Assembly (NCBI GenBank): GCA_046597055.1 | Contig: JBKJLC010000222.1 | Location: forward strand, 1 to 64,000 | Length of the DNA stretch: 64,000 nucleotides | Origin: Kofleriaceae bacterium | GTDB taxonomy: Bacteria > Myxococcota_A > Polyangia > Haliangiales > Haliangiaceae | Direction of reading: 5' to 3' | Shown: positions 27,817 to 53,310 of the stretch, piece by piece | Position numbering within the stretch: the stretch's first letter is position 1 | How the letters are laid out: each line of letters opens with the position of its first letter | Notes under the pieces: model-generated | Database searches by the model: none | Seen by the model: only the letters and a program-made list of their open reading frames with translations | Told to the model about the DNA's origin: nothing | Position numbers and translations under genes: made by a program

Positions 27817-28599
27817 TCAACGCCCAGTGAACGTGGGTGTGCGCTTCTCGAGCAGCGCCGCGATGCCCTCGCTGGCATCGTTCGACTGCAGTGACTCGGC
27901 CTGTGCGAACGACTCCGCGTAGGCGGCGTCGCGCACGTTCCAGCCCAGGCCGCGATAGAGCGAGCGCTTGGTCTCGCGCACCGCCGCCGGCGCCGAGGTC
28001 GCGATGGCCGCGGCGAGCTCGAGCGCGCGCGGCAGGACCTCGTCCGCGGGCACGGCCGATGACAGGAGGCCGATCCGCTCGGCCTCGTCACCCTCGACCA
28101 GCCGGCCGGTGAACAACATCTCGGCCGCGCGCGAGACGCCGACCAGGCGCGGCAGGACATAGGAGATGCCCATGCCGGAGGTCAGGCCGAGCCGCGTGAA
28201 GTTGGCGCCGTAGCGTGCGGCGCGCGCCCCGATGCGGATGTCGCAGCACAGCGCCAGGCCGAAGCCACCGCCGACGGTGTGACCGTTGAGCGCGCCGATC
28301 ACCGGCACCGCCAGGTCGGTCACCGACAGGAACGGCTGGTACATCGCGAAGCTGCGCTCGTGCGCGGTGCGGGCCGGACCGTCGTCGCGCTGCACCCCCG
28401 ACTTGAAGTCGGCGCCGGCCGAGAAGCACGGCCCGGTCCCGGTGATCACGAGGCAGCGCAGCTCGGCGGTGCGGGCCTGGTCGACGGCGCGCGCGAACGC
28501 GTCGAGCAACTCGGGCGTCATGCTGTTGCGGTTGTCGGGCCTCGACAGGGTGATGATCCCGATCGCACCCTGCATCTCGAACACGACGGCGTCGCTCAT
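27817..28599 (-). CDS. Enoyl-CoA hydratase/isomerase family protein
   Basis: ITLSRPDNRNSM, FSAGAD, PVIGALNGHTVGGGFGLALCCDIR, EKRTPTFTGR. Confidence 0.93.
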   Translation of the reverse strand: MSDAVVFEMQGAIGIITLSRPDNRNSMTPELLDAFARAVDQARTAELRCLVITGTGPCFSAGADFKSGVQRDDGPARTAHERSFAMYQPFLSVTDLAVPVIGALNGHTVGGGFGLALCCDIRIGARAARYGANFTRLGLTSGMGISYVLPRLVGVSRAAEMLFTGRLVEGDEAERIGLLSSAVPADEVLPRALELAAAIATSAPAAVRETKRSLYRGLGWNVRDAAYAESFAQAESLQSNDASEGIAALLEKRTPTFTGR

Positions 28600-28766
28600 T
28601 GCCACCATCTACCACCGCGCCAGGCCGGCCGTCGATCATCGAGCGGGGCGCGCGCCGGTGACGGTGGCTCGGACCGGCTGCTGAGGCATGCACCCCGCAG
28701 GCCGAGAGAGGGATTGTTTGGCTCGCGTCCGGTCGCGCCCGGGCGGCCGGCCATAGAGTCCGACCC

Positions 28767-29231
28767 ATGTTCCTCCGAGCCCCCGTGTGGGCGGCCGCGG
28801 CCCTGGTCGCGATCGCAGCATGTCAATCAGGTCCGCCGCAGCGCGCCGAGCCCGCCGCGAGCGCGCATCCCAAGCCGAGCGCGCCGGTCGCGGTGAAGGT
28901 CGACGCCCAGCCGCTCGGAGGCAACGCCTACCAGGTCACGATGACCGCGACGCCCGCGGTGGCGGTGCCGTCGCTCGAGCTCGAGCTCGACGGGCGCCGC
29001 CAGGTGGTGGGCCCGACCGCCGCGGGTCAGCCGCGCGCGATGACCGCGCGGGTCCAGCTCGGCGTCGGCCGTGGCCGCGAGGTCGCGGCCAGCGCCTCGG
29101 TCATGGTGGGCGGACATCGCCGCCGCGCCGCCGCGGTCGTGCAGGTGGGGACGGTGCCGGTGGTGGCGCGCGAGCGGATCAACATCGTCCGACTTCCGGA
29201 CGGCTCCGAGGCGGCCGAGGTGCGCCAGTGA
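28767..29231 (+). CDS. Lipoprotein, small beta-rich domain
   Basis: IAAC lipobox; GTGA overlap with the next gene. Confidence 0.75.
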   Translation: MFLRAPVWAAAALVAIAACQSGPPQRAEPAASAHPKPSAPVAVKVDAQPLGGNAYQVTMTATPAVAVPSLELELDGRRQVVGPTAAGQPRAMTARVQLGVGRGREVAASASVMVGGHRRRAAAVVQVGTVPVVARERINIVRLPDGSEAAEVRQ

Positions 29232-30883
29232 AGCGCGCGCTGTGCGCGCTCGCCTTGCTCGCGGGCGCCTGCGGCGGCGATGACGACGACGCCGGTCAGA
29301 CCGGACCCGACGCCGGCGAGCTCAGCCCCGATGCGGCGACCTGCGGGATCGCGCCGGGCGGCGCGTGCGCTGATCAGACCCTGCAGACCTGCGTCGGCGG
29401 CGAGCTCCAGACCCAGGACTGTCGCGCCACGATGGCGACCTGCCGCTTCGACAGCGCCGCCGGTGCCGCGGCCTGTATCGACGAGTGCGCCGCCGCCAGC
29501 GTCGACGCGGCCGGCACCTGCGTCGACCGCTCGGTGCGCCGCTGCGAGGTGGTCGACGGGCGCAACACCGTGGTGAGCGACACCTGCGGCGCGGGCGAGA
29601 CGTGCGCGCCCGCGGGCCAGCCCGCGGCCTGCATCGGCGATCCGTGTCGCGACCTCGGCCCCCAGGGCAAGTGCGACGGCAACACGCTGCTCCGCTGCGT
29701 GGGTGGCGCGCCCTCGCCCACCGACTGCGCCGGCACCAGCCAGGTGTGCGCGTACGTGGACAACACCGCCGGCTACGCCTGCGTCGCGCCCGCGGCGACC
29801 GGCGCGATGGTGGTCACCGGGACCGTCCGCTACGAGGACCGGGCGCCGCTCAACGACGGCGCGCTCGGCGCGATCACCGCGATGGACGTCCGGGGCGCGC
29901 TGATCACCGTGGTCACCGACGCCGACAGCATGGTGGTCGCCACCGCGCTGACGTCGGATGACGGCAGCTACACGCTGCGCTACGACGCCGCGGTCGGCAC
30001 GATGGTGCACGTCATGGTGACCGCGCACAGCCCGCTGCCGGCGCGGCCGGTGCGGGTGCTGCGCAACCAGACCCAGCTGCACGGGTTCGGCGGGGCCAGC
30101 TTCGCCGCCGCCGCGAGCACGACCCAGGACCTGCTGGTCACCGATGCGTCAGCCGCGTCCGAGGCGTTCAACATCCTCGACCAGAGCGTGCTGGCGATGG
30201 ACACGATCCGGACCGCGATGGGCAACCCGACCCCGACGCCGCTCACCGCGCGCTGGTCGCGCGGCTCGAACCAAGGCACCTACTACTCCAACCGGACGAT
30301 CTTCCTGCTCGGCTCCACCTCGGACGACGACGGCTACGACGACACCGTCATCCTTCACGAGATCGGCCACTTCGTGGAGGACACCGAGGGTCGCTCTGAC
30401 TCGCCCGGTGGCGGCCACGACGGCTCGCCGACCGATCCGACCCTGGCGTGGAGCGAGGGCTTCGCGACCTACTTCGCGATGGCCACCCGCGGCGCGCCCT
30501 ACTACATGGACTCGAACTCGGGCGGCGGCTGGGGCTACGACGCCGACACCTCGCTGACCCGGGCCCAGGCCGCGGGCGCGCTCGACCAGAACGTGAGCGA
30601 GGACATGGTGAGCCAGATCCTGTGGGACCTCGGCGACGGCGGCAGCAACGACGACGATCCGCTGAGCTCGTCGATGCACGCGACGCTGCTGCGGATCCAG
30701 CCGAGCTACCTGGCCCGGGTCATGCTGCGCTCGGTCGGCGCTGACGGGGTCGACCTGGTCGACTTTCTCGACGGCTGGTTCCTGCGCGGGGGACTGTCGA
30801 CCTGCGCGGGCGTCCGGTCGGTCGTCTCGACCACGCGGACGTTTCCGTACGACTACGCCGGTCCCGGCGGCCGCTGCCCGTAG
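29228..30883 (+). CDS. Lipoprotein with Cys-rich repeats and a zinc metallopeptidase (HEXXH) domain
   Basis: LAGAC lipobox; about 3 Cys-rich ~40-aa repeats; VILHEIGH and downstream AWSEGFATY (gluzincin-like third ligand). Confidence 0.85.
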   Translation: MKRALCALALLAGACGGDDDDAGQTGPDAGELSPDAATCGIAPGGACADQTLQTCVGGELQTQDCRATMATCRFDSAAGAAACIDECAAASVDAAGTCVDRSVRRCEVVDGRNTVVSDTCGAGETCAPAGQPAACIGDPCRDLGPQGKCDGNTLLRCVGGAPSPTDCAGTSQVCAYVDNTAGYACVAPAATGAMVVTGTVRYEDRAPLNDGALGAITAMDVRGALITVVTDADSMVVATALTSDDGSYTLRYDAAVGTMVHVMVTAHSPLPARPVRVLRNQTQLHGFGGASFAAAASTTQDLLVTDASAASEAFNILDQSVLAMDTIRTAMGNPTPTPLTARWSRGSNQGTYYSNRTIFLLGSTSDDDGYDDTVILHEIGHFVEDTEGRSDSPGGGHDGSPTDPTLAWSEGFATYFAMATRGAPYYMDSNSGGGWGYDADTSLTRAQAAGALDQNVSEDMVSQILWDLGDGGSNDDDPLSSSMHATLLRIQPSYLARVMLRSVGADGVDLVDFLDGWFLRGGLSTCAGVRSVVSTTRTFPYDYAGPGGRCP

Positions 30884-30892
30884 ACTCGGGGC

Positions 30893-32458
30893 GTGCGCGG
30901 CCCCGGACTGGACGAGCTGATCGCGGCCGCGTACGCGGTCGAGGTCGCCACCGGCCCGGTGCTGGCGGGGGTGACGCGGGCCGAGGGCCTGCTGGCCGCG
31001 GCGGCGCAGCTTGCCGGGCTGATCGGGGCGCGGCGGGCGGTGGCGCGTGCGCCGGCGGAGCCGACCTGGTCGGCGCTGCCGGCACGGTCGGGGCCAGCGG
31101 TGGACGCGGCCGCGCGCGGGGCCGCGCTCGAGCGGATGCTGGCGTGGGCGGCCGCGGGTGGCGCCGATGCCGACGCGCTCGAGTTTCGCGTGGACGCCGA
31201 CGGCGGCTGCACCGCGCACGCGCGCCGTCCGATCGCGGCCGGCACGCGGGTGGTCACCGTGCCGCGGCGGCTGATGATCGTCGAGGACGACCTGGCCGCG
31301 TCCTCTACCGGCGCGGTCGATCCGTTCGGGCCCATGCTCCGCAGCGCCCGCGACACCCTGGCCGCGTGGCTGCCGCTCGAGGCGGCGCGCGCGGACTCGC
31401 CATGGCGGCCGTTCCTGGACGTGCTCCCGACCGCCCTGCCCGACCTGCCGGTCTTCCACGGCGACGCCGATCTCGACGAGCTGGCCGGCACCGTGGCGCG
31501 CGGCCTCGCGGCCGCCGCCCACGAGGACATCGGCAGCACCTATGGGCTGTTGCAGGACGGCCTCCAGGAGCGGGTCTCGCTGGTCGACTTCGCCTGGGGC
31601 CGGGCGATCGTGCGCTCGCGTGGGTACAACGTCGAGATCGGCGGCGAGGCGCGGGTCGCGTTGATCCCGATCGTCGATCTGTTGAACCATCGACCGGGCG
31701 ACACCACGTGGAGCTACCACCCGGACGAGGCGGCCTACGGGATCACCACGCTGCGCGCCTTCGAGACGGGCGACGAGGTGCACGCCACCTACGGGCCCTA
31801 TGGCAACGCGAAGCTGCTGGTCGGGTACGGGTTCGCGCTGGACGACCACGGCGTGGACGAGGCCGCGCTGGTGTTCGCGCCGGCCGGCGATCCCTGCACC
31901 GACCTCGCGGGGCACCTGGTGTGGCGACAGCCCTTCGCCGCGCCCGCGGCGATCGCGGTCGGGACCCGCTTCGACTGGCGGTTCCGGCGGGCACTGTCGG
32001 TCGCGCGCCTGCGCGCCGCGCCGTGGGCCCGCGTGCGCGCCGCGGCCGACCGCGGGCTGCCGGGCCGCGAGCTGCCCTGGCTCGGCGCCGCGATCGAGCG
32101 CGTTGCGCTGGCGGAGCTCGCCACCGCAGCCCGGGCCGGGATCGAGCGGCTCGACGAGAATGGGCCAGACGTGGAGCCGGTCGGCGGTACCGGCGCGGTG
32201 AACCCGGCGGCGACGTCGTGGCGGCGCGCGTGTGGCCTCGTGCGCCGCGGCGAGCGCGCGCTGCTCCAGCAGATCCTGGCGTTCGCGGCCGAGGCGGCGA
32301 CCCACGTGGACGCTGCCGACGCGGCGACCCGCGTCGGCGTCGCCGAGCCCGAAGCCGTGCGCCGGGTCGCCGACGCGGTCGCGGCGGCGCAGGCCGGGCC
32401 GCCGCCGCCGCTGGTGAGTGAGTACCTGTGCACGCTCGCCGACGAGCTGATGGACTGA
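30893..32458 (+). CDS. SET-domain protein methyltransferase, SETD3/SETD6/Rubisco-LSMT type
   Basis: ARRPIAAGTRVVTVPRRLMI, SPWRPFLDVLP, FAWGRAIVRSR, LIPIVDLLNH, GDEVHATYGPYGNAKLLVGYGF, helical substrate-binding-like C-terminus. Confidence 0.87.
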   Translation: MRGPGLDELIAAAYAVEVATGPVLAGVTRAEGLLAAAAQLAGLIGARRAVARAPAEPTWSALPARSGPAVDAAARGAALERMLAWAAAGGADADALEFRVDADGGCTAHARRPIAAGTRVVTVPRRLMIVEDDLAASSTGAVDPFGPMLRSARDTLAAWLPLEAARADSPWRPFLDVLPTALPDLPVFHGDADLDELAGTVARGLAAAAHEDIGSTYGLLQDGLQERVSLVDFAWGRAIVRSRGYNVEIGGEARVALIPIVDLLNHRPGDTTWSYHPDEAAYGITTLRAFETGDEVHATYGPYGNAKLLVGYGFALDDHGVDEAALVFAPAGDPCTDLAGHLVWRQPFAAPAAIAVGTRFDWRFRRALSVARLRAAPWARVRAAADRGLPGRELPWLGAAIERVALAELATAARAGIERLDENGPDVEPVGGTGAVNPAATSWRRACGLVRRGERALLQQILAFAAEAATHVDAADAATRVGVAEPEAVRRVADAVAAAQAGPPPPLVSEYLCTLADELMD

Positions 32459-32578
32459 AGCCAGACCGCAGGTAGCAGCTGCCTGCGCAGCGAGCGCGAG
32501 CTGGCACGCGCCAACCCGGTCCCATGGGACAGCGGCCGCCGCCGACCGGCAGGCCTCGCGGTTACCGCGGCTTCGGTC

Positions 32579-33280
32579 GTGGTCACTGCGCTCGGCGGCT
32601 GTGAGCTCCTCGACCTCGCCACCGCCGACAGGCTGGACCCGACCCAGACCACCGCGCTCGGGGATCTCATCGGGCAGACCGGCTCGCTGGCCGCGGTGAT
32701 CGCGGACCCCGACGAGGCCAGCGGCGCCGAGCTCGCCGACGCGCTCGCCCTCGATCACTTCGTCCACCTGGTCCGGCCCGACGTGCCCGCGACCGGGGCC
32801 GCGTCCCGCCTGGCGCGGCTGGCAGCCGCCCCGCCCCCGGAATGTATCGTCGACGCGGGCGGCATCCTGACCGCGACCGAGTGCGAGATCCCCATCGGCG
32901 AACGCACCTGTCGGGTCAACGGCACGATGCGCTCCACCCCCGGTGGAACCAGCACCCGTTACGCTGGCGAGCTGGCGGTGACCGGCGAGGGCTGTCCCGG
33001 CCGAGCCATCATGTTTGACTTCGACCTCGCCGGCCCGACCTCGAAGCCGACCGGGCTCGACGGTCAGGTCGACTTCAGCGAGGACCGCCCGCCGGGCAAC
33101 GTCTACCGCGGTCGCCTGGTCTTCCGGGGCATCGGCCTGGCCGGCTCGTGCGACCGGCCGTCGAAGGGCACGCTCGACGTGCGCGTCGATGGAGTCTACG
33201 GCGGTGAGGCGATCGCCGACGATATCACGGTGTCCTTCAACGAGAGCCCGGAGTGCGGCGTCATCCTGATCGAGGACTGA
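32579..33280 (+). CDS. Putative lipoprotein (start uncertain)
   Basis: LGGC lipobox; signal-peptide-like in-frame sequence extends upstream to about 32525 without an in-frame ATG/GTG; beta-rich Cys-containing mature part. Confidence 0.65.
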   Translation: MVTALGGCELLDLATADRLDPTQTTALGDLIGQTGSLAAVIADPDEASGAELADALALDHFVHLVRPDVPATGAASRLARLAAAPPPECIVDAGGILTATECEIPIGERTCRVNGTMRSTPGGTSTRYAGELAVTGEGCPGRAIMFDFDLAGPTSKPTGLDGQVDFSEDRPPGNVYRGRLVFRGIGLAGSCDRPSKGTLDVRVDGVYGGEAIADDITVSFNESPECGVILIED

Positions 33281-33331
33281 CCCGATCGCCGCCGCCGGTG
33301 GCCGCGGCGGGTGGAGTAGCATCGCGCGCCA

Positions 33332-34681
33332 ATGACGGGCGGGCCCGCCGACACCACGGTCGCACCTTCGACGCCGGCGCCGAGACGTCGCCGTCCCGGT
33401 GCCCGTTGCCACGTCGTCTACCCGCCGGCCATGATCAGGGTCATTCCGCTGGTCGGCGCCGAGACGATCCTGGGCCGCGACCCCGGCGAGAACGGGGTCG
33501 CGATCCCGCACCCCACGGCCTCGCGCCGGCACCTGGCCATCCGCTGGGAAGCCCGAGTGGAGCAGCACACCGTGGTCGATCTCGGCTCCAAGAACGGCGC
33601 CTCGGTCGATGGCACGCGGCTCGGTGACACGCCCCGGCTCCTCGACGACGGCGCGGTGGTTCGGGCCGGCGATCTGCTCCTCGTCTACGAGACGTTCGAC
33701 GACGAGGTCGCCGACGACGAGGTCGGGGCCGCGATCCCCGGCATCGCGGCGACGACGCGCCAGCTGCGCGCCCTGATGCGGCGCGCCGCCGAGGATCCGG
33801 CCCACGTGCTCCTCCTGGGTGAGACCGGCACCGGCAAGGAGCACATCGCGCGCGAGCTGCACCGGCGGTCGGGACGGACGGGACCGTTCCTCGCGGTCAG
33901 CTGCGCCGAGCTCAACGCGGAGCTCATGACCAGCCAGCTCTTTGGCCATGTGCGGGGCGCCTTCACCGGCGCCCAGCAGGCGCAGCCGGGCCTGTTTCGC
34001 GCCGCGGCCGGCGGCACGCTCCTGCTCGACGAGCTCGGCGAGCTCGCCGCGGTGGTGCAGCCCAAGCTCCTGCGCGTCTTGCAGGAAGGCGAGGTGCTGC
34101 CGGTCGGCGAGGGCCGGGCGGTCCCCATCGACGTCCGGGTGATCGCCGCGACCAACGCCGATCTGCCGGCGCTGGTCGAGGCCGGCGGGTTCCGCCGCGA
34201 CCTGTACGCGCGGCTCGCCTTCTGGGAGATCGTGGTGCCGGCGCTGCGGGCGCGGCGCGCCGATATCCTCGGCTGGCTCGAGCTGCTGCACGACCGCTTC
34301 GTCGAGCGCCGCGCCGGCGTGCGCACCCCGCTGCTGCTCGACGCCGACGCCGCCGAGACCCTCCTGCTGGCGCCCTGGCTCGACAACCTGCGCGGCCTGG
34401 ATCGGGTGATCCACCGGCTGGCCGCCAGTCGATCGCCGGGTACCGTCGTGACCCGCGCCGAGCTGGTGGCGCTGCTGCCGACGACGGCGACCGCGAACGC
34501 GACCCCGGCGGGACCGACGTCTTCGCCGACCCCGGCGCCCCCGCCCCCGCCCCCGCCCGCGACCCGCGCCGAGCTCGAGGCCGCGCTCGCCGAGCACGGC
34601 AGCGTCCGCGCGGTCGCCAAGCACTACCGGCGCGATCGGCGGCAGGTCTACCGCTGGCTCAAGGATCTCGGCCTGCGCTGA
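33332..34681 (+). CDS. FHA-domain sigma54-dependent enhancer-binding protein
   Basis: FHA (LGR, ASRRH, DLGSKNG), Walker [15 protein letters not shown], Walker [16 protein letters not shown]-terminal HTH. Confidence 0.95.
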
Positions 34682-34715
34682 CCGCGGGTCCCGGCGGTGG
34701 GCGCCGGCCCCGCGG

Positions 34716-37700
34716 TCACCGCGCCGTGCGGCGGGCGAGCACGACGTAGCCCTCGGCCTCGGCCTGCCGGCGCGCGGCCTCGAAGCGCTTGCGACCCTTG
34801 CCCAGCTGCGCCTCGAGCTGACCGAGCGTCACGCGCAGCGCCAGCGCGCGCCCGCCGAACCCGTGGCGCTCGGCGTCGGCCAGCGCCGCGGTCACCACCG
34901 GCACCGCCGCGCGTCGTTCGGCTGCGCTGCCGGCCGTCGCCACCTGGCCGGCGGCATCGGCCACGACCATCCGGACATCGAACACCTCGCTGGTCTCTAC
35001 CAGCGCGAGCGCCCGCGCGGCCAGCGGCGCGGCGGCCTCCGGGGCCAGCGCGCGCGCCTCGACCGCGAGGGCGACGGCGACGCCCTCGGCCAGCTCGAAG
35101 CGCGCGTAGCTGGCGCCGGCGTCGCGGGCCAGCCGGGCGGCCTCGGCTGGCTGGCCGGCCTGGAGCGCGATCTCGGCCAGCTGCAGCACGCCCAGCGGCT
35201 CGGTCATGCGCTGCCCGGACTCGCGCCGGATCCGTTGCACGCGGTCCACCAGCGCCCGGGCTTCGTCGAGCCGGCCGTGCGCGATGGCGATGTCGGCCAG
35301 CCACTGCAACGGAAACGCCGCATACGGCTGCGCGGTGACCTCGAGCTGCGCCAGCAGGCTGTTCAGCTCGGCGACCGGCTCGTCGAGGCGGCCGCGGGCG
35401 CGCTGCACCAGCGCCAGCCCCATGCGCGGGAACGCCGTGTACGGCAGGTTCCCGTGGCGCTCGAACGTCTGCCGCGATCGCTCGGAATAGGCCGCCGCAG
35501 CGTCCAGCTCGCCGGCGAACACGTACGCCAGGCCCAGGTAGTACTCCGCCCACCCGGTCCGGTGCGACGACCCGATGGCGGTGCCGATCGCCAGGGCCTC
35601 GTCGGCATGGCCGCGCGCCACGGTCAGTCGCCCGGCCGACATCTCGAGCCACGACAGCTCGGACAGCATCTCGCTGATCGCCGCCTGGTTACCGACCTCG
35701 CGGCGGATCGCCAGCGACGCCTCGTACAGGGCGCGGGCGACCCGCGGCTCGCCACCCTGCAGGCGCACCAGGCCGAGCGCCATCAGCGCTTCGCTCTCGA
35801 GGCTGCGCGCGTTCAGCTCCGACGCGATCATGCGCTGCTCTTCGAACGCCGCCGCCGCCGCGGCGATATCGCCGAGGAAATAGCGGGCCCAGCCCTCCTC
35901 GGACCGGCCGGCGGCGATGGTCAGCCGCGCACCGCGCACCCGCCCCTTGCGCACCGCCTCCGCCGCCGCCCGCAGGCGGAGCTCGGCGTCGCCGAGGCCG
36001 GCGGCGCCGGCCGCCTCGAGCAGATCGATGAGCGGGCTATCCCCGAGCGGCGGCGGCAGCGCCCGCAGCGCGGCCACCGTCTCCAGCGCGGCCGGGCCCT
36101 GGCCGGCGACGAACTGCGTGCGCGCCAGCATGAGCCCGTGGTCGAGGTTGTCGGGAAAGAACCGCCACAGCGTCTGGTAGATCTCCAGGGCCTGCTCGGT
36201 GGCCCCGAGGGTGGAGCGGTAGCGCGCCTCGATGACCAGGCGATCCTCGCGGGTCAGCCCCTCCGACCGCTCGTAGGCGCGCCGGGCCGCCTCGGCGGCA
36301 CGGCCGTCATACCCGAGCTGCCACCACGCTTCGGCGAGCGCGGCGTGGGCGACCGCGAGCCGGTCATCGGCGGCGATCGCGGCGATGAACGCATCGCGGG
36401 CCGCCAGCGGGTCGAACCGACGCAGCGCCGCCGCACCCTCGGCGTAGCGCTGCATCGCCTCGGGATTGCGCGGGAACGCCGCCGGCTGGCGCTCGACGCT
36501 GGTGCCAGCCGGCTGGGCGACCCCCAGCCGCGCGCGCACGCGGGTCCCGAGGCGAGCCACCATATCGAGCAACTCGCGGCCCGTGCCGCTCTCGGCGAGC
36601 CCGGCGACGATCGCCGTCGACTCCTGGATCCGCACGTCGACGCGCAGCTGGCCACCGACGTCGACATACTGGCCGTAGATCAGCACGTCGGCGCCCAGGA
36701 TCGTCCGCAGCCGGGCGCGGGTCGCCACGCCATCGGGTGCCTGCTGCTCGGCGCGGGTCAGCTCGAGCGCGGCGCGCGCCACCTGATCGCGCGGGATCAC
36801 GCGCAGCGCCTCGCCGGCCCCCAGCTCGGTCGCCAGCATCTCGGTCAGGCCGGCGCCGATCCACGCCGCGTCCGGCTGACCGGACAGGTTGCGGAAGTCG
36901 AGCACCGCCACCGAGCGCCGGGCCACGACCGCCGACGACGACGACGACGGCGCCAGCGCCGGCGCGCGCCCGCGGCTGGCCACCAGCGCCAGCCCGGCCG
37001 CCATCACCAGCGCCGTGACCGCCAGGTAGACGCCGCGGCGGCGCGGCGGGCTCAGCCGCCTCGCCAGCGCGGCCGGCGGCGGCCGGCGCGCCGGATCGCG
37101 CGCCAGGCAGGCGCGGATGACGTCATCCCAGCGCCGCTCGAGCGCGGGGACCAGGCTGCGCGGCGACGGCTCGGCACCTACCTGCGAGCTCGGGGCCGGA
37201 CGACGGCCGGTCACCAGCTCGAACAGGACGACGCCGAAGGCGTAGACATCGGTCGCCGGCGTGGCCTCGCCACCCGCGGCCTGTTCGGGTGCCATGTACG
37301 CCGGCGTCCCGGCGACGCCGCCGTGGGCGTCCGGACCCGGCTCGTCGAGCGTGTCGTGGGCCAGGCCGAAATCGGTGACGACCGCGCCGCGGGTCGTCAG
37401 CACCACGTTGGCGCTCTTGAAGTCGCGGTGCACCACGCCGGCGCCGTGGGCGGCGTCGAGCGCCGCCGCCATGTCGCGCACCAGGGGCAAGGCGTCGCGC
37501 GGGTGGAGCGGACCCGTGCGGACCAGCCGCTGGGCGAGCGTCTCGCCGTCGAGCAGCTCCATGGTCAAGAAGGTCGTGTCGCCGTGGCGACCCAGGTCGA
37601 ACGCGCGGCACACGTGGGGATGGGTGATCTTGCGCGTGAGCAAGATCTCGCGCTTGAACCGCTCGAGGATGCCGGGGCGGTCGAGGACGGCGGCCCGCAC

Positions 37701-37880
37701 CGTCTTCAGCGCCACCCGATCGTGCAGCTCGAGATCGTCGACCTCGTAGACCTCACCCATGCCGCCCTGCGCGAGAAAGCGCACCACCCGGTAGCGGCCG
37801 GCCAGCAGATCGCCGGCGGCGAAGACGGGCGCGGCCTCGCTCCGGCTCGGGGTGCCCACGGCACTTTGGGTCTCGTCCAT
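34716..37880 (-). CDS. Membrane Ser/Thr protein kinase with TolB-like domain and TPR repeats
   Basis: GGMGEVY, VALK, HRDFKSANV, DFGLA, GTPAYMAPE; TM helix; SVAVLDFRNLSG domain; multiple TPRs; start ATG 37880 (alternative 37925). Confidence 0.93.
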   Translation of the reverse strand: MDETQSAVGTPSRSEAAPVFAAGDLLAGRYRVVRFLAQGGMGEVYEVDDLELHDRVALKTVRAAVLDRPGILERFKREILLTRKITHPHVCRAFDLGRHGDTTFLTMELLDGETLAQRLVRTGPLHPRDALPLVRDMAAALDAAHGAGVVHRDFKSANVVLTTRGAVVTDFGLAHDTLDEPGPDAHGGVAGTPAYMAPEQAAGGEATPATDVYAFGVVLFELVTGRRPAPSSQVGAEPSPRSLVPALERRWDDVIRACLARDPARRPPPAALARRLSPPRRRGVYLAVTALVMAAGLALVASRGRAPALAPSSSSSAVVARRSVAVLDFRNLSGQPDAAWIGAGLTEMLATELGAGEALRVIPRDQVARAALELTRAEQQAPDGVATRARLRTILGADVLIYGQYVDVGGQLRVDVRIQESTAIVAGLAESGTGRELLDMVARLGTRVRARLGVAQPAGTSVERQPAAFPRNPEAMQRYAEGAAALRRFDPLAARDAFIAAIAADDRLAVAHAALAEAWWQLGYDGRAAEAARRAYERSEGLTREDRLVIEARYRSTLGATEQALEIYQTLWRFFPDNLDHGLMLARTQFVAGQGPAALETVAALRALPPPLGDSPLIDLLEAAGAAGLGDAELRLRAAAEAVRKGRVRGARLTIAAGRSEEGWARYFLGDIAAAAAAFEEQRMIASELNARSLESEALMALGLVRLQGGEPRVARALYEASLAIRREVGNQAAISEMLSELSWLEMSAGRLTVARGHADEALAIGTAIGSSHRTGWAEYYLGLAYVFAGELDAAAAYSERSRQTFERHGNLPYTAFPRMGLALVQRARGRLDEPVAELNSLLAQLEVTAQPYAAFPLQWLADIAIAHGRLDEARALVDRVQRIRRESGQRMTEPLGVLQLAEIALQAGQPAEAARLARDAGASYARFELAEGVAVALAVEARALAPEAAAPLAARALALVETSEVFDVRMVVADAAGQVATAGSAAERRAAVPVVTAALADAERHGFGGRALALRVTLGQLEAQLGKGRKRFEAARRQAEAEGYVVLARRTAR

Positions 37881-38037
37881 ATGCAGCCGGGCGCGCGCGG
37901 CACGGCGCAGCGCCCGACCATACATACCATCGGGGTCGCGGGTCGGCCGGCCCCCAGCTATGTCGGCGACGAACCTCCCGAGCTGGCGAGGGTCGACCGC
38001 AGCGCCGCAGCGGCGCCGGCGCGTGGCTGCCCAGCGG

Positions 38038-39247: not shown

Positions 39248-39475
39248 GCCGCCTGACGGCGGAACTCCTCGAGTTTCCGCCGCCGGTCACAGGAGGGCCG
39301 TGGCGCGCGCCGCGACGTCCCATGGGACATGCGCCAGGACTTCGGGCGCCGGGTGCAGCGCGTGAGGCTCGGCAACGCGAGGGCTTCGAGCCGAGCGTCG
39401 TCGGGGTCGCGCCAGGACGCGCCAAGGCGCGGCGCCGGACCTGACGGCGCCCGTACTCGATGCCATGCTGCGCAC

Positions 39476-40455
<980 letters not shown>

Positions 40456-40459
<4 letters not shown>

Positions 40460-41181
40460 CCGCGGCGGTCGTCAGGTTCGACCGGCCCGATCGGCTCGCC
40501 CGCGCCGCCGCCGACCAGCTCGCGGCGATCGCGACCGCGGCGGTCGCCGCGCGCGGCGGCTGCAGCATCGCGCTGGCTGGCGGCTCGACCCCGCGGCGGC
40601 TGTACCAGGTGCTGGCCGCGCGCGGGCGCGCGGCGCTGCCGTGGGACGCGGTCGATCTTTGGTGGGGCGACGAGCGCACCGTGGCGCCCGATCACGCCGA
40701 CTCGAACTACGGGACGGCGCGGGCGGCGCTGATCGAGCCGCTCGGCCTGGCGCCCGATCGGGTGCACCGCATCGCCGGCGAGCACGCCGACCCCGAGGTG
40801 GCGGCGGCCGCGTACGAGCGGGCCCTGGTCGCCGCGCTCGGGGCACCGCCGGTGTTCGACCTGGTGCTGCTCGGCATGGGCGCCGACGGTCACACCGCGT
40901 CGCTGTTCCCGGGCAGCGCGGCGCTCGCCGAGACCGCGCGCCTGGTCGTCGCCAGCCGGGTGACCTCGCCGCTGGTCGGCGGCGCGACGACCCGGATCAC
41001 GCTGACCGCGGCGGCGCTGTCAGCGGCGCGGCACACGCGCTTCCTGATCACCGGCGCCGACAAGGCCGCGGTGGTGGCCGCCGTGTTGACTGGCCCACCC
41101 GGTCGGTTTCCGGCCCAGCGGATCGCCGGTCCCGATCTGGTCTGGCTGATCGACGAGGCGGCCGCTGCCGGCCTGCCGTGA
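40456..41181 (+). CDS. pgl: 6-phosphogluconolactonase
   Basis: [45 protein letters not shown]-coupled to gnd. Confidence 0.95.
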
Positions 41182-41219
41182 CCACCGTGCCCAGGCGCGC
41201 CACCAAAGGAGCAACCTTC

Positions 41220-42779
41220 ATGACGGCACCCGAACCTCCGCGCCCCCTGGCCCCGATCCCGTCGGTGATCGGCGAGATCCTGGGCGAGGCGCCCGGCAAG
41301 CGGCGGCGTCCCGATCCGATGGCGATCGTGATCTTCGGCGCGACCGGTGACCTCACCAGCCGCAAGCTGGTGCCGGCGCTCTACAACCTGATGGTCGACC
41401 GCTTGCTGAGCGAGCCGACCGTGATCATCGGCCTCGGCCGCAACGACCTCGGCGCGGCGGCCTTCGCGGCCCAGCTGCGGCCGGCGGTCATCGAGCACTC
41501 GCGTCAGCCGGTCGAGCCCGCCGCGTGGGACAAGTTCGCCGGCATGCTCGACTTCATCGGCGGCGAGTTCGCCGACGACGCGATCTACCTCGCGCTCAAG
41601 ACCCGGCTCGAGGCCGCCGCCGCCCAGGGCACCCAGGGCAACCGGATCTTCTACCTGGCCGTGCCGCCGGCCGTGTTCACGCTCGTGATCGAGAAGCTGC
41701 ACCAGCACCAGCTGGTCGAGCGCGCCCCGAAGGGCGCCGGTGGCCCGGCGTGCCGGGTGATCGTCGAGAAGCCGTTCGGTCGCGATCTCGCCTCCGCGCG
41801 CGCGCTCAACGAGCTGATCGGCCGCTACCTCGACGAGCGCCAGATCTACCGGATCGATCACTACCTCGGGAAGGAGACGGTCCAGAACATCCTGGTGCTG
41901 CGCTTCGGGAACTCCATCTTCGAGCCAATCTGGAACCGCAACCACGTCGACTTCGTCGAGATCACCGCGGCCGAGACGATCGGCATCGAGGGCCGCGGCG
42001 GGTTCTACGAGTCGACCGGCGTGCTGCGCGACGTCATCCAGAACCACCTGCTCCAGGTCATGTCGCTGGTGACGATGGAGGTGCCGGCATCGTTCTCCGC
42101 CGACGACATCCGCGACGAGAAGGCGCAGGTCCTGCGCTCGGTGCGGCCGCTGACCCTCAACGAGGTCGCCAACGACTGCGTGCGCGGCCAGTATCGCGGC
42201 TACCGCGAGGAGCACGGCGTCGCGCCCGACTCGCAGATACCGACCTACGCGGCGATGCGGTTCATGATCGACAGCTGGCGCTGGCAGGGCGTGCCGTTCT
42301 ACCTGCGTGCCGGCAAGGGCCTCGCCGAGCGGGTCACCGAGGTCCTGATCCACTTCAAGTCGGTGCCGCTGATGCTGTTCAAGGAAGAGGCCGCCGGCAG
42401 CGTGCTGCAGCCGGCGGTGCTGACCTTGCGGATCCAGCCCCAGGAGGGCGTCTCGCTGCGGTTCATGGCCAAGGTGCCGGGCGAGAACATCCAGGTCGGC
42501 AGCGTGGTGATGACCATGAACTACGCCGACGCGTTCCACCGCCCGATCGCCGAGGCCTACGAGCGCCTGCTGCTCGACTGCATGCGCGGTGACGCGACCC
42601 TGTTCAACCGGCGCGACACCGTCGATCGCGCCTGGCAGCTGATCGAGCCGGTGCTCCAGGTCTGGGAGGCCACCCCGGGCGTCCTCAGCTACGAGCCGGG
42701 TAGCTCGGGCCCGCCGGCCGCCGACGAGATGATGGGCCGCGACGGCCGCAGCTGGCGCGAGCTGGTCAAGACGCCCTGA
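41220..42779 (+). CDS. zwf: Glucose-6-phosphate 1-dehydrogenase
   Basis: IFGATGDL..RKL, EKPFG, RIDHYLGKETVQN, RWQGVPFYLRAGK, AYERLL; alternative GTG start at 41178. Confidence 0.97.
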   Translation: MTAPEPPRPLAPIPSVIGEILGEAPGKRRRPDPMAIVIFGATGDLTSRKLVPALYNLMVDRLLSEPTVIIGLGRNDLGAAAFAAQLRPAVIEHSRQPVEPAAWDKFAGMLDFIGGEFADDAIYLALKTRLEAAAAQGTQGNRIFYLAVPPAVFTLVIEKLHQHQLVERAPKGAGGPACRVIVEKPFGRDLASARALNELIGRYLDERQIYRIDHYLGKETVQNILVLRFGNSIFEPIWNRNHVDFVEITAAETIGIEGRGGFYESTGVLRDVIQNHLLQVMSLVTMEVPASFSADDIRDEKAQVLRSVRPLTLNEVANDCVRGQYRGYREEHGVAPDSQIPTYAAMRFMIDSWRWQGVPFYLRAGKGLAERVTEVLIHFKSVPLMLFKEEAAGSVLQPAVLTLRIQPQEGVSLRFMAKVPGENIQVGSVVMTMNYADAFHRPIAEAYERLLLDCMRGDATLFNRRDTVDRAWQLIEPVLQVWEATPGVLSYEPGSSGPPAADEMMGRDGRSWRELVKTP

Positions 42780-44526: not shown

Positions 44527-52323
<7,797 letters not shown>

Positions 52324-52536
52324 GATCCCTCTGCGGCGCGGGCGAAGGTCCAGAGCGGGAGCCGCGTCTCGCGCGCCTCCCTCCGAGGCACGTCCACGCA
52401 GTCCCGCAGCTGCCGAATCCGGCTCGGAGCGTAACACCGCGCGCGACGTCGTCACGACGCGGCGGCCGCGAAAACGCGAGTGACTGCCGCCGGCTTCGCC
52501 GGGTGAGAGCCGCACGCACCGTGGTAAGCAAACGCC

Positions 52537-53310
52537 GTGGTGCCGGTCGAACCGCTCGCTGACGTCCTGTACGAAGACGCCGAGCTGATCGCGGTGGCCA
52601 AGCCCGCGGGAGTCGCGGTCGTGCCCGAGCGCGACGAGGCGGCGACCGCGTGTCTGCGCCACCAGCTGGAGGCCGCGCGTGGTGAGCCACTGTGGGTGGT
52701 CCACCGCATCGACAAGGACACGTCGGGGCTCGTCCTGTTCGCGCGGTCGGCCGCCGCGCACCGGTGGATGAACGACGCGTTCGCCGAGCGGCGAGTCGCC
52801 AAGCGCTACGTGGCATTCGCAGCCGGCGACCTGCCGGGCGAGCGAAGCGTGGACCTCGTGCTGGTGCCGGCGCGGCGGGGCAAGGCCCGGCCGGCGGCGG
52901 CGGGCGAGGCCGGGGGCAAATCCGCGGTCACGCATCTGCGGGGCGTGCGGCGGTGGCGGCGGGGCGATGATGTGGTGACGCTGTGCGAGGCGCGGCCCGT
53001 CACCGGACGGCATCATCAGATCCGCGTGCACCTGCGCAGCCTGGAGGCGCCGATCCTGTTCGATCCGCTGTACGGGAAGCGGACGCTGCGCGGGGCTTAC
53101 GAAGGCGCGCCGGCCGGGCGGCTGGCGTTGCACGCGGAGGCGATCGAGCTGCGGCGGCCTGACGGGCGGGTGCTGTCGGTGGTCGCGCCGTGGGCGGCGG
53201 ATCTGATCGCGCTGCGTGGGTGGCTGGATGGGACGTGGACGGAGGTGGGGACGGAGAGGGACGGGGAGATCGGGACGGAGATGGCGAACGAGAAAGAGAC
53301 GAGTTCATGA
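52537..53310 (+). CDS. RluA-family pseudouridine synthase
   Basis: VLYED..LIAVAKPAG, VHRIDKDTSG catalytic motif, TGRHHQIRVHL, PILFDPLYG, LALHA. Confidence 0.95.
   Translation: MVPVEPLADVLYEDAELIAVAKPAGVAVVPERDEAATACLRHQLEAARGEPLWVVHRIDKDTSGLVLFARSAAAHRWMNDAFAERRVAKRYVAFAAGDLPGERSVDLVLVPARRGKARPAAAGEAGGKSAVTHLRGVRRWRRGDDVVTLCEARPVTGRHHQIRVHLRSLEAPILFDPLYGKRTLRGAYEGAPAGRLALHAEAIELRRPDGRVLSVVAPWAADLIALRGWLDGTWTEVGTERDGEIGTEMANEKETSS

What the first reader, a model, noticed from the sequence alone, without database searches (positions are those of the whole stretch)
30893..32458. Eukaryote-type SETD3/SETD6/Rubisco-LSMT methyltransferase in a bacterium
Seen: not the short bacterial SET type but a ~520-aa protein with the large helical insertion (LAAWL..E....SPWRPFLDVLP...FAWGRAIVRSR), LIPIVDLLNH, EV.ATYG.YGNAKLL.GYGF and an LSMT-like C-terminal helical domain. 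Established: this subfamily methylates non-histone proteins in eukaryotes (actin His73, Rubisco, translation and ribosomal proteins). Inference: either a bacterial Lys/His protein-methylation system or an effector against eukaryotic prey. It lies 9 nt after the protease gene and just before a kinase/FHA module; no signal peptide is seen.
Basis: partly seen in the sequence, partly recalled or inferred. Interest (0 to 1): 0.75.

Follow-up and report, generated by a model that had tools for sequence, protein, structure and literature searches.

The report
Myxobacterial SETD3/LSMT-type protein lysine methyltransferase
A soil myxobacterium encodes a real, intact two-domain protein methyltransferase of the type best known from eukaryotes (SETD3, SETD6, Rubisco LSMT); its active site looks built for lysine rather than histidine, its target is unknown, and similar uncharacterised genes turn out to be scattered through other bacteria.

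Summary
Pfam barely sees it (SET E=0.032, no PF09273). PDB sequence searches hit SETD3 (E 7e-16; family profile 2e-33), LSMT and SETD6. An AF2 model (pLDDT 87) superposes on SETD3 over 413 residues spanning both the SET and the C-terminal helical domain (Z 27.5; SETD6 23.0, LSMT 22.9, SMYD only 11.5).

It is not a SETD3 orthologue. The positions that make SETD3 a histidine enzyme (Asn255, Trp273) are Tyr245 and Val261 here, the Phe/Ala-like pattern of the lysine enzymes. The genome shows no eukaryote-type actin, histone fold or Rubisco.

The gene belongs to a ~500-aa clade of Kofleriaceae/Haliangiales genomes. That clade has two paralogues in this genome, tandem copies elsewhere, no conserved neighbours and patchy presence (9 of 401 Myxococcota genomes).

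More distant bacterial relatives, including a Corallococcus-type protein, carry Pfam-recognised SET plus Rubis-subs-bind domains, and JGI already labels several "SETD3". So the class is not eukaryote-only.

Best reading: a cytoplasmic SAM-dependent protein-lysine methyltransferase with an unknown, probably endogenous substrate. It is a new member of a known kind, of moderate interest.

The parts
30893..32458 (+). Whole gene: 521-aa SETD3/SETD6/LSMT-class SET methyltransferase (P0001), GTG start, TGA stop
   Evidence: ORF. GC3 0.94. PDB sequence hits. Profile hits. Structure.
30893..31057 (+). Clade-specific N-terminal helical extension (aa 1-55), followed by a conserved W59-x-x-L-P motif
   Evidence: Conserved in the ~500-aa clade (alignment A1) and absent from the 410-425-aa forms P0023 and P0031. 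It lies outside the region superposed on SETD3 (model range starts at 52-55). pLDDT is 91-96 for aa 11-40.
31133..31867 (+). Catalytic SET domain (aa 81-325) including the i-SET insertion
   Evidence: phmmer aligns aa 81-325 to SETD3 residues 83-340, E 7e-16. Profile A1 positions 82-328 match SETD3 at E 2e-33. Weak Pfam SET hit over aa 109-301, E 0.032.
31340..31621 (+). Large helical i-SET insertion (aa ~150-243) ending in the invariant RSR(243)
   Evidence: Model helices H152-164, H172-175, H191-195, H201-218, H222-227 and H230-243. Aligned to the SETD3 insertion.
31619..31627 (+). R243-G-Y245: invariant Arg, and an aromatic residue at the position of SETD3 Asn255
   Evidence: Residue-by-residue alignment. 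R in 118 of 118 and F/Y in 113 of 118 relatives. Paper passage.
31673..31690 (+). V261 (position of SETD3 Trp273) through the N265-H266 'NH' motif
   Evidence: H266 is invariant in A1. N265 is N in 87 and D in 29 of 118.
31784..31792 (+). A298-T-Y300: catalytic Tyr equivalent to SETD3 Tyr312
   Evidence: Y in 118 of 118. Invariant in A1. Aligned.
31826..31834 (+). Y312-G313-F314 post-SET motif; Y312 sits at the position of SETD3 Ser324
   Evidence: G313 and F314 invariant. Y/F at position 312 in 116 of 118.
31880..32455 (+). C-terminal helical LSMT-like (substrate-recognition) domain, aa 330-521
   Evidence: VIA-align superposes model 52-481 (up to 521) on SETD3 41-497 (up to 502), Z 26.4-27.5, 407-418 residues aligned. 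Profile A1 aligns in one stretch across the PF09273-annotated part of P0076, P0080 and P0164. No direct PF09273 hit.
29228..30883 (+). Upstream neighbour: 551-aa predicted lipoprotein with Cys-rich repeats and a HEIGH zinc-metalloprotease-like motif (30356-30370); ends 9 nt before the SET gene
   Evidence: Frame switch in GC3 near 29230. Signal VKRALCALALLAGAC. Sub-threshold TIGR04338 hit. No Pfam hit at E<=1e-5, only a chance-level E 0.063 match at E<=10, and no PDB hit. Not found beside the SET homologue in the other fetched loci (loci L002-L042 were the tblastn database).
32579..33280 (+). Downstream neighbour: 233-aa ORF of unknown family, with a possible lipobox (ALGGC) and an ambiguous start
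   Evidence: No Pfam or NCBIfam hit. Not conserved beside SET homologues.
33332..34681 (+). FHA + sigma-54 AAA+ activator + HTH (449 aa)
   Evidence: Pfam Sigma54_activat E 1.9e-56 and FHA E 1.9e-12. Not conserved beside SET homologues.
34716..37900 (-). Convergent Ser/Thr protein kinase with TPR region (start approximate)
   Evidence: Pkinase E 5e-36 and TPR_MalT E 2e-11. Coding frame by GC3 runs up to ~37800.

Best explanation
The gene encodes a cytoplasmic, S-adenosylmethionine-dependent protein methyltransferase of the SETD3/SETD6/Rubisco-LSMT class. The SET lobe (aa ~81-325, with a large helical i-SET insertion) would bind SAM and form the target-residue channel. The C-terminal helical lobe (aa ~330-521) would grip the substrate protein away from the target residue, as it does in LSMT.

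The channel is of the lysine type: an aromatic Tyr245 where SETD3 has Asn255, a small Val261 where SETD3 has Trp273, a conserved Tyr300, and an aromatic Tyr312. The enzyme therefore most likely methylates the epsilon-amino group of a lysine, not a histidine, on one or a few specific proteins. The substrate is unknown. It is probably a protein of the bacterium itself and not actin, histone or Rubisco, none of which was found in the genome.

Shown: gene reality, homology, two-domain fold, conservation of catalytic residues, pocket composition, patchy distribution, lack of conserved neighbours.

Inferred: activity, lysine specificity, cytoplasmic location, endogenous target.
For: Sequence homology:
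- SETD3 E 7.2e-16, LSMT 9e-10.
- With the family profile: SETD3 2.2e-33, LSMT 8.6e-21, SETD6 7.1e-16, PAP7/pTAC14 1.5e-7.

Fold:
- AF2 model with pLDDT 87.3 and pTM 0.87.
- Foldseek: SETD3 E 8.7e-18.
- VIA-align: SETD3 Z 27.5 over 413 residues covering both lobes, SETD6 Z 23.0, LSMT Z 22.9. The next family, SMYD, reaches only Z 11.5 and covers the SET lobe only.

Catalytic residues:
- R243, H266, Y300, G313 and F314 are invariant in 26 clade members that are 42-47% identical.
- R243 and Y300 are kept in 118 of 118 wider relatives.

Lysine-type pocket:
- Position-by-position alignment to SETD3.
- Dai et al. 2019 (PMC6684798, passages read) state that Asn255 is Phe and Trp273 is Ala in SETD6 and LSMT.
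- None of 118 relatives has Asn or Trp at those positions: F 99/Y 14/H 3/L 2 at the first, and A 88/V 14/others 16 at the second.
- The engineered SETD3 N255F/W273A chain (6v62) scores slightly better than wild-type chains.

Wider family and genome:
- Relatives fused to GNAT acetyltransferase domains (6 of the 29 relatives scanned, which were picked mainly for being long) fit a protein-lysine-modifying role.
- No signal peptide.
- No eukaryote-type actin: best hit 29.5 bits, the level also seen in E. coli and B. subtilis controls.
- No histone fold and no Rubisco large subunit.
Against: - No biochemical evidence of any kind.
- Pfam's own models almost miss the protein: SET E 0.032, below the 22.4-bit cut-off, and no PF09273 hit even at E<=10.
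- Val at the Trp273 position and Ala at the Ile310 position are minority states among relatives (14 and 12 of 118), so the pocket differs in detail from LSMT/SETD6.
- The NH asparagine is Asp in 29 of 118 relatives, including the genome's own paralogue; the consequence is unknown.
- No conserved neighbour points to a substrate.
- The gene is missing from the same-genus representative (best match there 35% identical), and the C-terminal lobe is not alignable with its positional orthologue beyond aa 372. That pattern would also fit a target outside the cell.
- The genome is a 94% complete, 7.6% contaminated draft, so absence of actin, histone or Rubisco is 'not found', not proven.
Confidence: 0.6

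Rival explanations
1. It is an effector delivered into other cells (prey bacteria, amoebae or other soil eukaryotes), where it methylates a foreign protein, as the known SET-domain effectors of intracellular pathogens do.
For: - Patchy presence: 9 of 401 Myxococcota genomes, and no close orthologue in the same-genus genome.
- Two paralogues in this genome, and tandem copies in L029, L030, L034, L041 and L042.
- Faster divergence than flanking genes: 54% and 63% identity for the two SET paralogues, against 77-85% for their neighbours in the same pair of genomes.
- The substrate-binding lobe is reshaped between positional orthologues.
- None of the classical substrates was found in the genome.
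- Homologues of the type III export gate (FHIPEP) exist at two loci of the genome.
- Both flanking genes look exported.
Against: - No signal peptide or recognisable secretion signal.
- No secretion-system genes anywhere in the 64-kb window.
- No T6SS sheath gene found in the genome.
- No hits on plasmids or phages.
- Composition is the same as the surrounding chromosome.
- One paralogue keeps a stable position next to a SerC-like aminotransferase gene in three loci.
- Faster divergence than housekeeping neighbours is ordinary for accessory cytoplasmic enzymes.
Confidence: 0.15
2. It acts together with its same-strand neighbours as one unit (lipoprotein HEXXH protein, SET, 233-aa ORF, FHA/sigma-54 activator), for example by methylating the activator or another signalling protein.
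For: - Four same-strand genes with short gaps (9 nt, 120 nt, 51 nt).
- No terminator-like site found in 28500-34900.
Against: - None of these neighbours accompanies a SET homologue in the other fetched loci that served as the tblastn database (L002-L042), nor among the 71 neighbours of 21 family loci scanned with Pfam.
- The positional orthologue locus L018 has different genes on both sides.
- The same-genus genome lacks the whole block.
- The two flanking proteins appear to be exported, whereas SET has no signal.
Confidence: 0.1
3. It is a protein-histidine methyltransferase like SETD3, as the automatic JGI names of relatives suggest.
For: - SETD3 is the best sequence and structure match in the PDB.
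- JGI labels relatives 'SETD3' or 'protein-histidine N-methyltransferase'.
- Earlier AI notes of this scan report myxobacterial SETD3-like genes beside actin and profilin genes (unchecked leads).
Against: - Asn255 and Trp273 of SETD3 are Tyr and Val here, and are never Asn or Trp in 118 relatives.
- The paper passage says these two residues are Phe and Ala in the lysine enzymes.
- No eukaryote-type actin in this genome, nor in five other Myxococcota genomes that hold homologues.
Confidence: 0.07
4. It is a non-catalytic SET-fold protein (a scaffold or methyl-lysine/substrate binder).
For: - Pfam SET score is below threshold.
- The NH asparagine varies (N/D/E) in the family.
- An earlier AI note describes decayed LSMT-like pairs in another bacterium (unchecked).
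Against: - All mapped catalytic and SAM-contact positions are intact here (N265, H266, Y300, R243, G313-F314).
- Apart from N265, these positions are invariant across the clade.
Confidence: 0.05

Closest known systems
Human SETD3 (actin His73 N-methyltransferase; e.g. PDB 3smt, 6mbj, 7w28)
   Same: Best sequence match (E 7e-16 single sequence; 2e-33 family profile) and best structural match (Z 27.5, 413 residues, both lobes). Same order of N-SET, helical i-SET, C-SET and C-terminal helical lobe. Same NH motif, catalytic Tyr and GF motif.
   Different: About 18% identity. The pocket residues that specify histidine (Asn255, Trp273) are Tyr and Val. No eukaryote-type actin was found in the genome. 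The protein has an extra, clade-specific N-terminal 55 residues.
Pea Rubisco large-subunit methyltransferase LSMT (PDB 1mlv, 1ozv, 1p0y, 2h21)
   Same: Two-lobe architecture (Z 22.9, 383 residues aligned). RSR-aromatic motif and a small residue before D-x-x-N-H, that is, a lysine-type pocket.
   Different: Pfam PF09273 does not recognise the C-terminal lobe here. No Rubisco large subunit was found in the genome. Sequence similarity is weaker than to SETD3.
Human SETD6 (RelA Lys310 methyltransferase; PDB 3qxy)
   Same: Z 23.0 over 369 residues with the lowest rmsd, 4.2 A. Lysine-type pocket (Phe/Ala).
   Different: Profile E only 7e-16. The substrate is eukaryote-specific.
Uncharacterised bacterial SET + Rubis-subs-bind proteins (e.g. 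the Corallococcus coralloides locus L039 / P0164, and P0076, P0080, P0085)
   Same: Homologous over SET and C-terminal lobe in one stretch (E 1e-39 to 1e-62 with the clade profile). Same pocket pattern R-F-A-N-H-x-Y-Y-F. Bacterial origin for L039.
   Different: These are 427-449 aa and lack the N-terminal extension. Their C-terminal lobe is recognised by PF09273 above its cut-off (60-83 bits). They fall in other clades of the tree.
Short bacterial SET-domain proteins and SET effectors reviewed in PMC3980110
   Same: SET fold and SAM-dependent lysine methylation.
   Different: That review does not contain the words Rubisco, LSMT, SETD, myxo or deltaproteobacteria (term search of its text). The protein here has the i-SET insertion and the LSMT-like lobe that, by my recollection, those short (~120-170 aa) proteins lack. 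None of them was fetched or compared here.

Membership tests
SETD3/SETD6/LSMT class of SET methyltransferases | SET catalytic fold with significant sequence similarity to class members | tested here: met
   phmmer: SETD3 E 7e-16, LSMT 9e-10. Family profile: SETD3 2e-33, LSMT 9e-21, SETD6 7e-16. The Pfam SET model alone is sub-threshold (15.1 bits against 22.4).
SETD3/SETD6/LSMT class of SET methyltransferases | Large helical i-SET insertion between the N-SET and C-SET halves | tested here: met
   aa ~150-243 are modelled as six helices and align to the SETD3 insertion.
SETD3/SETD6/LSMT class of SET methyltransferases | C-terminal elongated helical (LSMT substrate-binding-like) domain, judged by structure and by profile | tested here: met
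   VIA-align: model 52-481 on SETD3 41-497, Z 27.5. SETD6 and LSMT Z ~23 with ranges reaching model residues 466-485. SMYD matches stop near residue 322. Profile A1 aligns in one stretch across the PF09273 regions of P0076, P0080 and P0164. The structure is a prediction, not an experiment.
SETD3/SETD6/LSMT class of SET methyltransferases | Direct match to Pfam PF09273 (Rubis-subs-bind) | tested here: not met
   No hit even at E<=10. The lobe is too diverged for the Pfam model, although relatives score 33-121 bits.
SETD3/SETD6/LSMT class of SET methyltransferases | Catalytic/SAM-site residues: NH motif, catalytic Tyr, Arg of the RSR motif, GF motif | tested here: met
   N265-H266, Y300, R243, G313-F314.
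SETD3/SETD6/LSMT class of SET methyltransferases | Binds SAM and transfers methyl groups to a protein | not testable with these tools
   Needs biochemistry.
SETD3 orthologues (actin-histidine methyltransferase) | Histidine pocket residues Asn255 and Trp273 | tested here: not met
   Tyr245 and Val261 here. Zero of 118 relatives have Asn or Trp. The role of these residues comes from PMC6684798 (passages).
SETD3 orthologues (actin-histidine methyltransferase) | Eukaryote-type actin substrate encoded by the organism | tested here: not met
   PF00022 best hit is 29.5 bits, the same level as the E. coli and B. subtilis controls. The same holds in 5 other Myxococcota genomes with homologues. The genome is 94% complete.
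Rubisco LSMT orthologues | Rubisco large subunit present as substrate | tested here: not met
   PF00016: no match at E<=0.001 in the genome.
Rubisco LSMT orthologues | Lysine pocket with an aromatic residue at the SETD3-255 position and a small residue at the 273 position | tested here: met
   Tyr245 and Val261, against Phe/Ala in LSMT and SETD6.
Short stand-alone bacterial SET proteins | Small protein consisting of little more than the SET core (size recalled, ~120-170 aa) | tested here: not met
   521 aa with an i-SET insertion and a 190-aa C-terminal lobe.

The most novel reading that the evidence does not exclude
The Kofleriaceae/Haliangiales clade is a diversifying family of lysine methyltransferases whose rapidly changing C-terminal recognition lobe tracks proteins of other organisms (prey, competitors or soil protists). 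That would make it a new class of myxobacterial methyltransferase effectors, exported by a route that needs no classical signal peptide. Paralogy, tandem duplication, patchy presence even within a genus, and reshaped substrate lobes between positional orthologues are all compatible with this reading. None of them proves it.
Probability: 0.12. Interest if true: 0.75.

Novelty: new member of a known kind. Interest (0 to 1): 0.42.

Why it matters
Protein lysine methylation by SET enzymes is well studied in eukaryotes but hardly at all in free-living bacteria. The two-lobe SETD3/SETD6/LSMT class has no characterised bacterial member in any of the seven literature searches run here (search listings only, apart from the three papers whose text was searched or read in passages).

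This gene gives a concrete, intact and apparently active example in a developmentally complex soil bacterium that was found to encode none of the class's known substrates. Finding its target would show what this fold does outside eukaryotes. It would also bear on whether the class arose in bacteria.

It also shows that automatic labels such as 'SETD3' or 'protein-histidine N-methyltransferase' on bacterial relatives are probably wrong about the target residue.

Tried and rejected
- **Conserved gene neighbourhood.** tblastn of 11 window proteins against 42 fetched loci and Pfam of 71 neighbours around 21 family loci gave no recurrent partner. Only lineage-local synteny appeared: SerC-like aminotransferase upstream in L002, L014 and L029; Cu/Zn SOD in L015 and L016; Cys/Met PLP enzyme in L012 and L021; Methyltransf_11 in L020 and L022.
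- **Same-genus genome.** The DAGK and ECH neighbours are present in G150, but no HEXXH, SET, orf233 or FHA homologue was found in the 19 kb around them.
- **Classical substrates in the genome.** Actin, histone fold and Rubisco were not found.
- **Mobile-element origin.** No tblastn match on plasmids or phages at E<=1e-5, and no compositional anomaly.
- **Expression.** No RNA holder is listed among 13 runs.
- **Upstream 'protease'.** No Pfam hit at E<=1e-5, only a chance-level E 0.063 match at E<=10, and no PDB hit.
- **Naming relatives' organisms.** Of the 20 clusters looked up with the listing of cluster members, only one carried an organism name (Spongospora).
- **Rooted phylogeny with named SETD3/SETD4/SETD6/LSMT sequences.** This could not be done because no tool returned those sequences as usable records.
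- **Direct PF09273 match.** None.
- **Earlier notes.** Look-ups by place and by sequence returned nothing.
- **Complex prediction.** Not used, because there was no candidate partner worth testing.
Full report
**1. Observation**

The ORF at 30893-32458 (+) starts with GTG and encodes 521 residues. The window is 70-77% G+C. The ORF has the codon-position GC pattern of real genes here, 0.81/0.57/0.94.

The preceding ORF stops with TAG at 30881-30883, and nine bases later comes the GTG. The 26-sequence family alignment begins within a few residues of this start, so the start is well placed. The N-terminus is not hydrophobic, and the model folds it as helices packed on the body.

**2. What the protein is**

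- Pfam alone would have missed it. The only hit is SET at E 0.032 (15.1 bits, cut-off 22.4), with no Rubis-subs-bind hit even at E<=10. NCBIfam has nothing.
- Against PDB sequences, the 12 non-chance hits (E<=1e-9) of 13 at E<=10 are SETD3 (E 7e-16 to 6e-15, query 81-325) or Rubisco LSMT (9e-10). The 13th is a chance-level match to a sorbitol operon regulator at E 1.6.
- A profile of the clade raises this to SETD3 2e-33, LSMT 9e-21, SETD6 7e-16 and plastid PAP7/pTAC14 1.5e-7.
- An AlphaFold2 model built on that alignment is confident (mean pLDDT 87.3, pTM 0.87).
- Foldseek ranks SETD3 first (E 8.7e-18).
- VIA-align gives SETD3 Z 27.5 with 413 residues aligned, model 52-481 on chain 41-497. SETD6 scores Z 23.0, LSMT Z 22.9 and PAP7 about 21. 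There is a clear drop to SMYD proteins at Z 11.5, whose matches mostly end near residue 322, the end of the SET lobe.
- The ESM Atlas look-up lists only eukaryotic clusters with SET + Rubis-subs-bind as nearest by features (a lead, not a test).

So the C-terminal half is an LSMT-type helical lobe, even though PF09273 does not see it.

**3. Active site**

The hmmer alignment to SETD3 is unambiguous around the motifs. It gives these correspondences:

| This protein | SETD3 |
|---|---|
| R243 | R253 |
| Y245 | N255 |
| V261 | W273 |
| N265-H266 | N277-H278 |
| A298 | I310 |
| Y300 | Y312 |
| Y312 | S324 |

Dai et al. 2019 (PMC6684798; passages read) describe the SETD3 target pocket as lined by Asn255 ('Phe in SETD6 and LSMT'), Trp273 ('Ala in SETD6 and LSMT'), Ile310 and Tyr312. 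They show that Asn255 variants shift activity between histidine and lysine.

I aligned 118 sequences: the window protein, 21 hand-picked clade members, ORFs from 12 loci, and 84 of the best profile hits that were 380-700 aa long. In that alignment:
- R243 and Y300 are kept in 118 of 118.
- The Asn255 position is F 99, Y 14, H 3, L 2.
- The Trp273 position is A 88, V 14, I 5, L 4, S 3, G 2, H 1, M 1.

None has the SETD3 pair. Consistently, the engineered SETD3 N255F/W273A chain (6v62) is the top PDB sequence hit, ahead of wild type. I therefore predict a lysine methyltransferase. The JGI names 'SETD3' and 'protein-histidine N-methyltransferase' on relatives are probably over-specific.

**4. Family and distribution**

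- The word-indexed protein search found 38 relatives, mostly 480-530 aa and 41-56% identical, from metagenomes.
- The exhaustive profile search found 10,440 cluster representatives at E<=0.001, 3,724 at <=1e-10 and 330 at <=1e-30.
- A pattern scan of GTDB species genomes returned 31 loci. Most come from Kofleriaceae, Haliangiales or 'Myxococcales' MAGs. There are also more distant hits in a complete Corallococcus coralloides chromosome and a gammaproteobacterial MAG.
- In an even sample of the phylum, 9 of 401 genomes (including this one) have a match at E<=1e-10, with either the single protein or the profile. Only 1 of 6 other genomes of the same family has one.
- The same-genus representative has only 34-35% identical homologues.
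- This genome has exactly two copies: the window gene and a 45% identical paralogue on contig C95.
- Tandem copies occur in five loci.

A FastTree of the 118 rows places the window protein in a well-supported clade of 26 lysine-poor sequences (support 96). Its nearest rows are L012, P0004 and P0023 (identical to the L018 ORF). A probable eukaryotic clade of 26 rows, containing the one named eukaryote (Spongospora) and many sequences from 1.5-1.8 kb contigs, sits elsewhere (support 99). Named bacterial loci (Corallococcus L039, L006, L041) lie in between.

The tree has clear limits. It is unrooted, made with the fast method, warns of long-branch joins, and most rows carry no taxonomic label. 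It shows only that the clade is not visibly nested in the eukaryotic group among these hits.

Of 29 relatives scanned with Pfam (picked mainly for being long), most have SET and PF09273 above threshold. These include the bacterial-type P0076, P0080, P0085 and the Corallococcus-like P0164 (82.9 bits). Some are fused to other domains: GNAT acetyltransferases (6), TPR (5, in the eukaryote-like clade) or PhyH (1). Four are head-to-tail doubles. The class is therefore already recognisable in bacteria; this clade is a diverged branch of it.

**5. Context**

Gene order around the finding:

| Coordinates | Strand | Gene |
|---|---|---|
| 27817-28608 | - | enoyl-CoA hydratase |
| 29228-30883 | + | 551-aa predicted lipoprotein with HEIGH motif |
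| 30893-32458 | + | SET gene |
| 32579-33280 | + | 233-aa unknown ORF with a possible lipobox |
| 33332-34681 | + | FHA/sigma-54 activator |
| 34716-~37900 | - | convergent Ser/Thr kinase-TPR gene |
| from 38038 | - | ricin-lectin protein |

No terminator-like site lies between the four same-strand genes, so co-transcription is possible.

The arrangement is not conserved, however:
- None of the four neighbours accompanies a SET homologue in the other fetched loci.
- Pfam of 71 neighbours from 21 loci shows unrelated functions.
- One Kofleriaceae MAG keeps the upstream DAGK (85% identical) and ECH (81%) genes and has a SET gene at the same place (L018). That gene is only 54% identical, over residues 68-372, lacks the N-terminal extension and has a shortened C-terminal lobe. 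It is flanked by different genes.
- The same MAG also keeps the second paralogue (63% identical) next to a SerC-like gene (77%).
- In the same-genus genome the DAGK and ECH genes are present, but the block is absent from the 19 kb examined.

**6. Substrate**

The genome (94% complete, 7.6% contamination) was searched for the classical substrates:
- No eukaryote-type actin. The best PF00022 score is 29.5 bits, as in E. coli and B. subtilis controls.
- No histone fold.
- No Rubisco large subunit.
- Five other Myxococcota genomes with homologues also lack eukaryote-type actin.

Earlier AI notes of this scan mention a different myxobacterial SETD3-like gene beside actin and profilin, and LSMT-type genes in other bacteria and a cyanophage. 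They are unchecked leads. They agree that the class recurs in bacteria, and the actin link does not apply here.

The substrate therefore remains unknown. Members of this class in eukaryotes methylate abundant non-histone proteins such as ribosomal proteins and elongation factors (recalled, not checked here), so a comparable endogenous target is my default guess.

An exported-effector role is not excluded. The family is patchy, duplicated and fast-diverging, and FHIPEP export-gate homologues exist in the genome. But there is no signal peptide, no T6SS sheath gene, no secretion genes in the window, and no link to plasmids or phages.

**7. Novelty**

Seven full-text searches gave no listing about bacterial members of this class. 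The bacterial SET review PMC3980110 contains none of the terms Rubisco, LSMT or SETD. The SETD3 review PMC8537074 mentions bacteria only as expression hosts. Subscription journals are not covered, so this is not proof of absence from print.

Databases already tag relatives as SET/'SETD3', and Pfam recognises the architecture in some bacteria. I therefore rate this as a new member of a known kind. It is an uncharacterised, diverged bacterial branch with a predicted lysine specificity, of moderate interest.

Noticed in passing
window 28787-30883 (+), especially 28787-29227: The long ORF listed for the 'protease' is probably over-extended. Its first ~147 codons are Arg/Gly-rich and lie where GC3 peaks in another frame (ORF 28662-29231, GC3 0.86). 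The real gene likely starts at GTG 29228 with a lipoprotein signal (LAGAC, Cys15), followed by Cys-rich repeats and a HEIGH motif at 30356-30370. It has no Pfam hit at E<=1e-5 and no PDB relative.
   Followed up: partly
window 32459-33280 (+): The 233-aa ORF after the SET gene has an Arg-rich, hydrophobic, ALGGC lipobox-like N-terminus that begins upstream of the first ATG/GTG/TTG (32579). It may use a non-canonical start such as one of the in-frame CTG codons. No family match.
   Followed up: partly
G000:C95:407-1924 (-) = L002: A second SETD3/LSMT-type paralogue in the same genome (506 aa, 45% identical, with Asp instead of Asn in the NH motif). It lies directly downstream of a SerC-like class-V aminotransferase. 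The same order (HMGL-like, aminotransferase, SET) recurs in L014 and L029.
   Followed up: partly
L029, L030, L034, L041, L042: Tandemly duplicated SETD3/LSMT-type genes in several myxobacterial MAGs and one gammaproteobacterial MAG. Single polypeptides with two SET + Rubis-subs-bind units also exist (P0063, P0070, P0075, P0104).
   Followed up: no
P0128, P0151, P0152, P0163, P0167, P0180; P0062: Natural fusions of SET/LSMT-type methyltransferases with GNAT acetyltransferase domains (N- or C-terminal), and one fusion with a PhyH dioxygenase domain. These are possible dual protein-lysine modifiers.
   Followed up: no
L018:7990-12849 (-) and window 34716-37900 (-), 44530-53304 (-): Large TPR proteins lie near SET genes: a 1620-aa protein in L018, and a kinase-TPR and a 2925-aa TPR protein in the window. 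TPR is fused to SET/LSMT in the eukaryote-like clade. Only 1 of 21 family loci had a TPR gene among the two nearest neighbours, so this is probably chance here.
   Followed up: partly
G150:C42:12000-31000 = L044: In the same-genus genome the DAGK and enoyl-CoA hydratase genes are divergent instead of co-oriented, and the HEXXH-SET-orf233-FHA block is missing. This marks a local rearrangement and a variable region.
   Followed up: partly
window 40341-42779 (+): The 812-aa ORF contains G6PD domains only from residue 330 onward, so its true start is probably far downstream of the first start codon. It follows a 6-phosphogluconate dehydrogenase-like gene (39329-40459).
   Followed up: no
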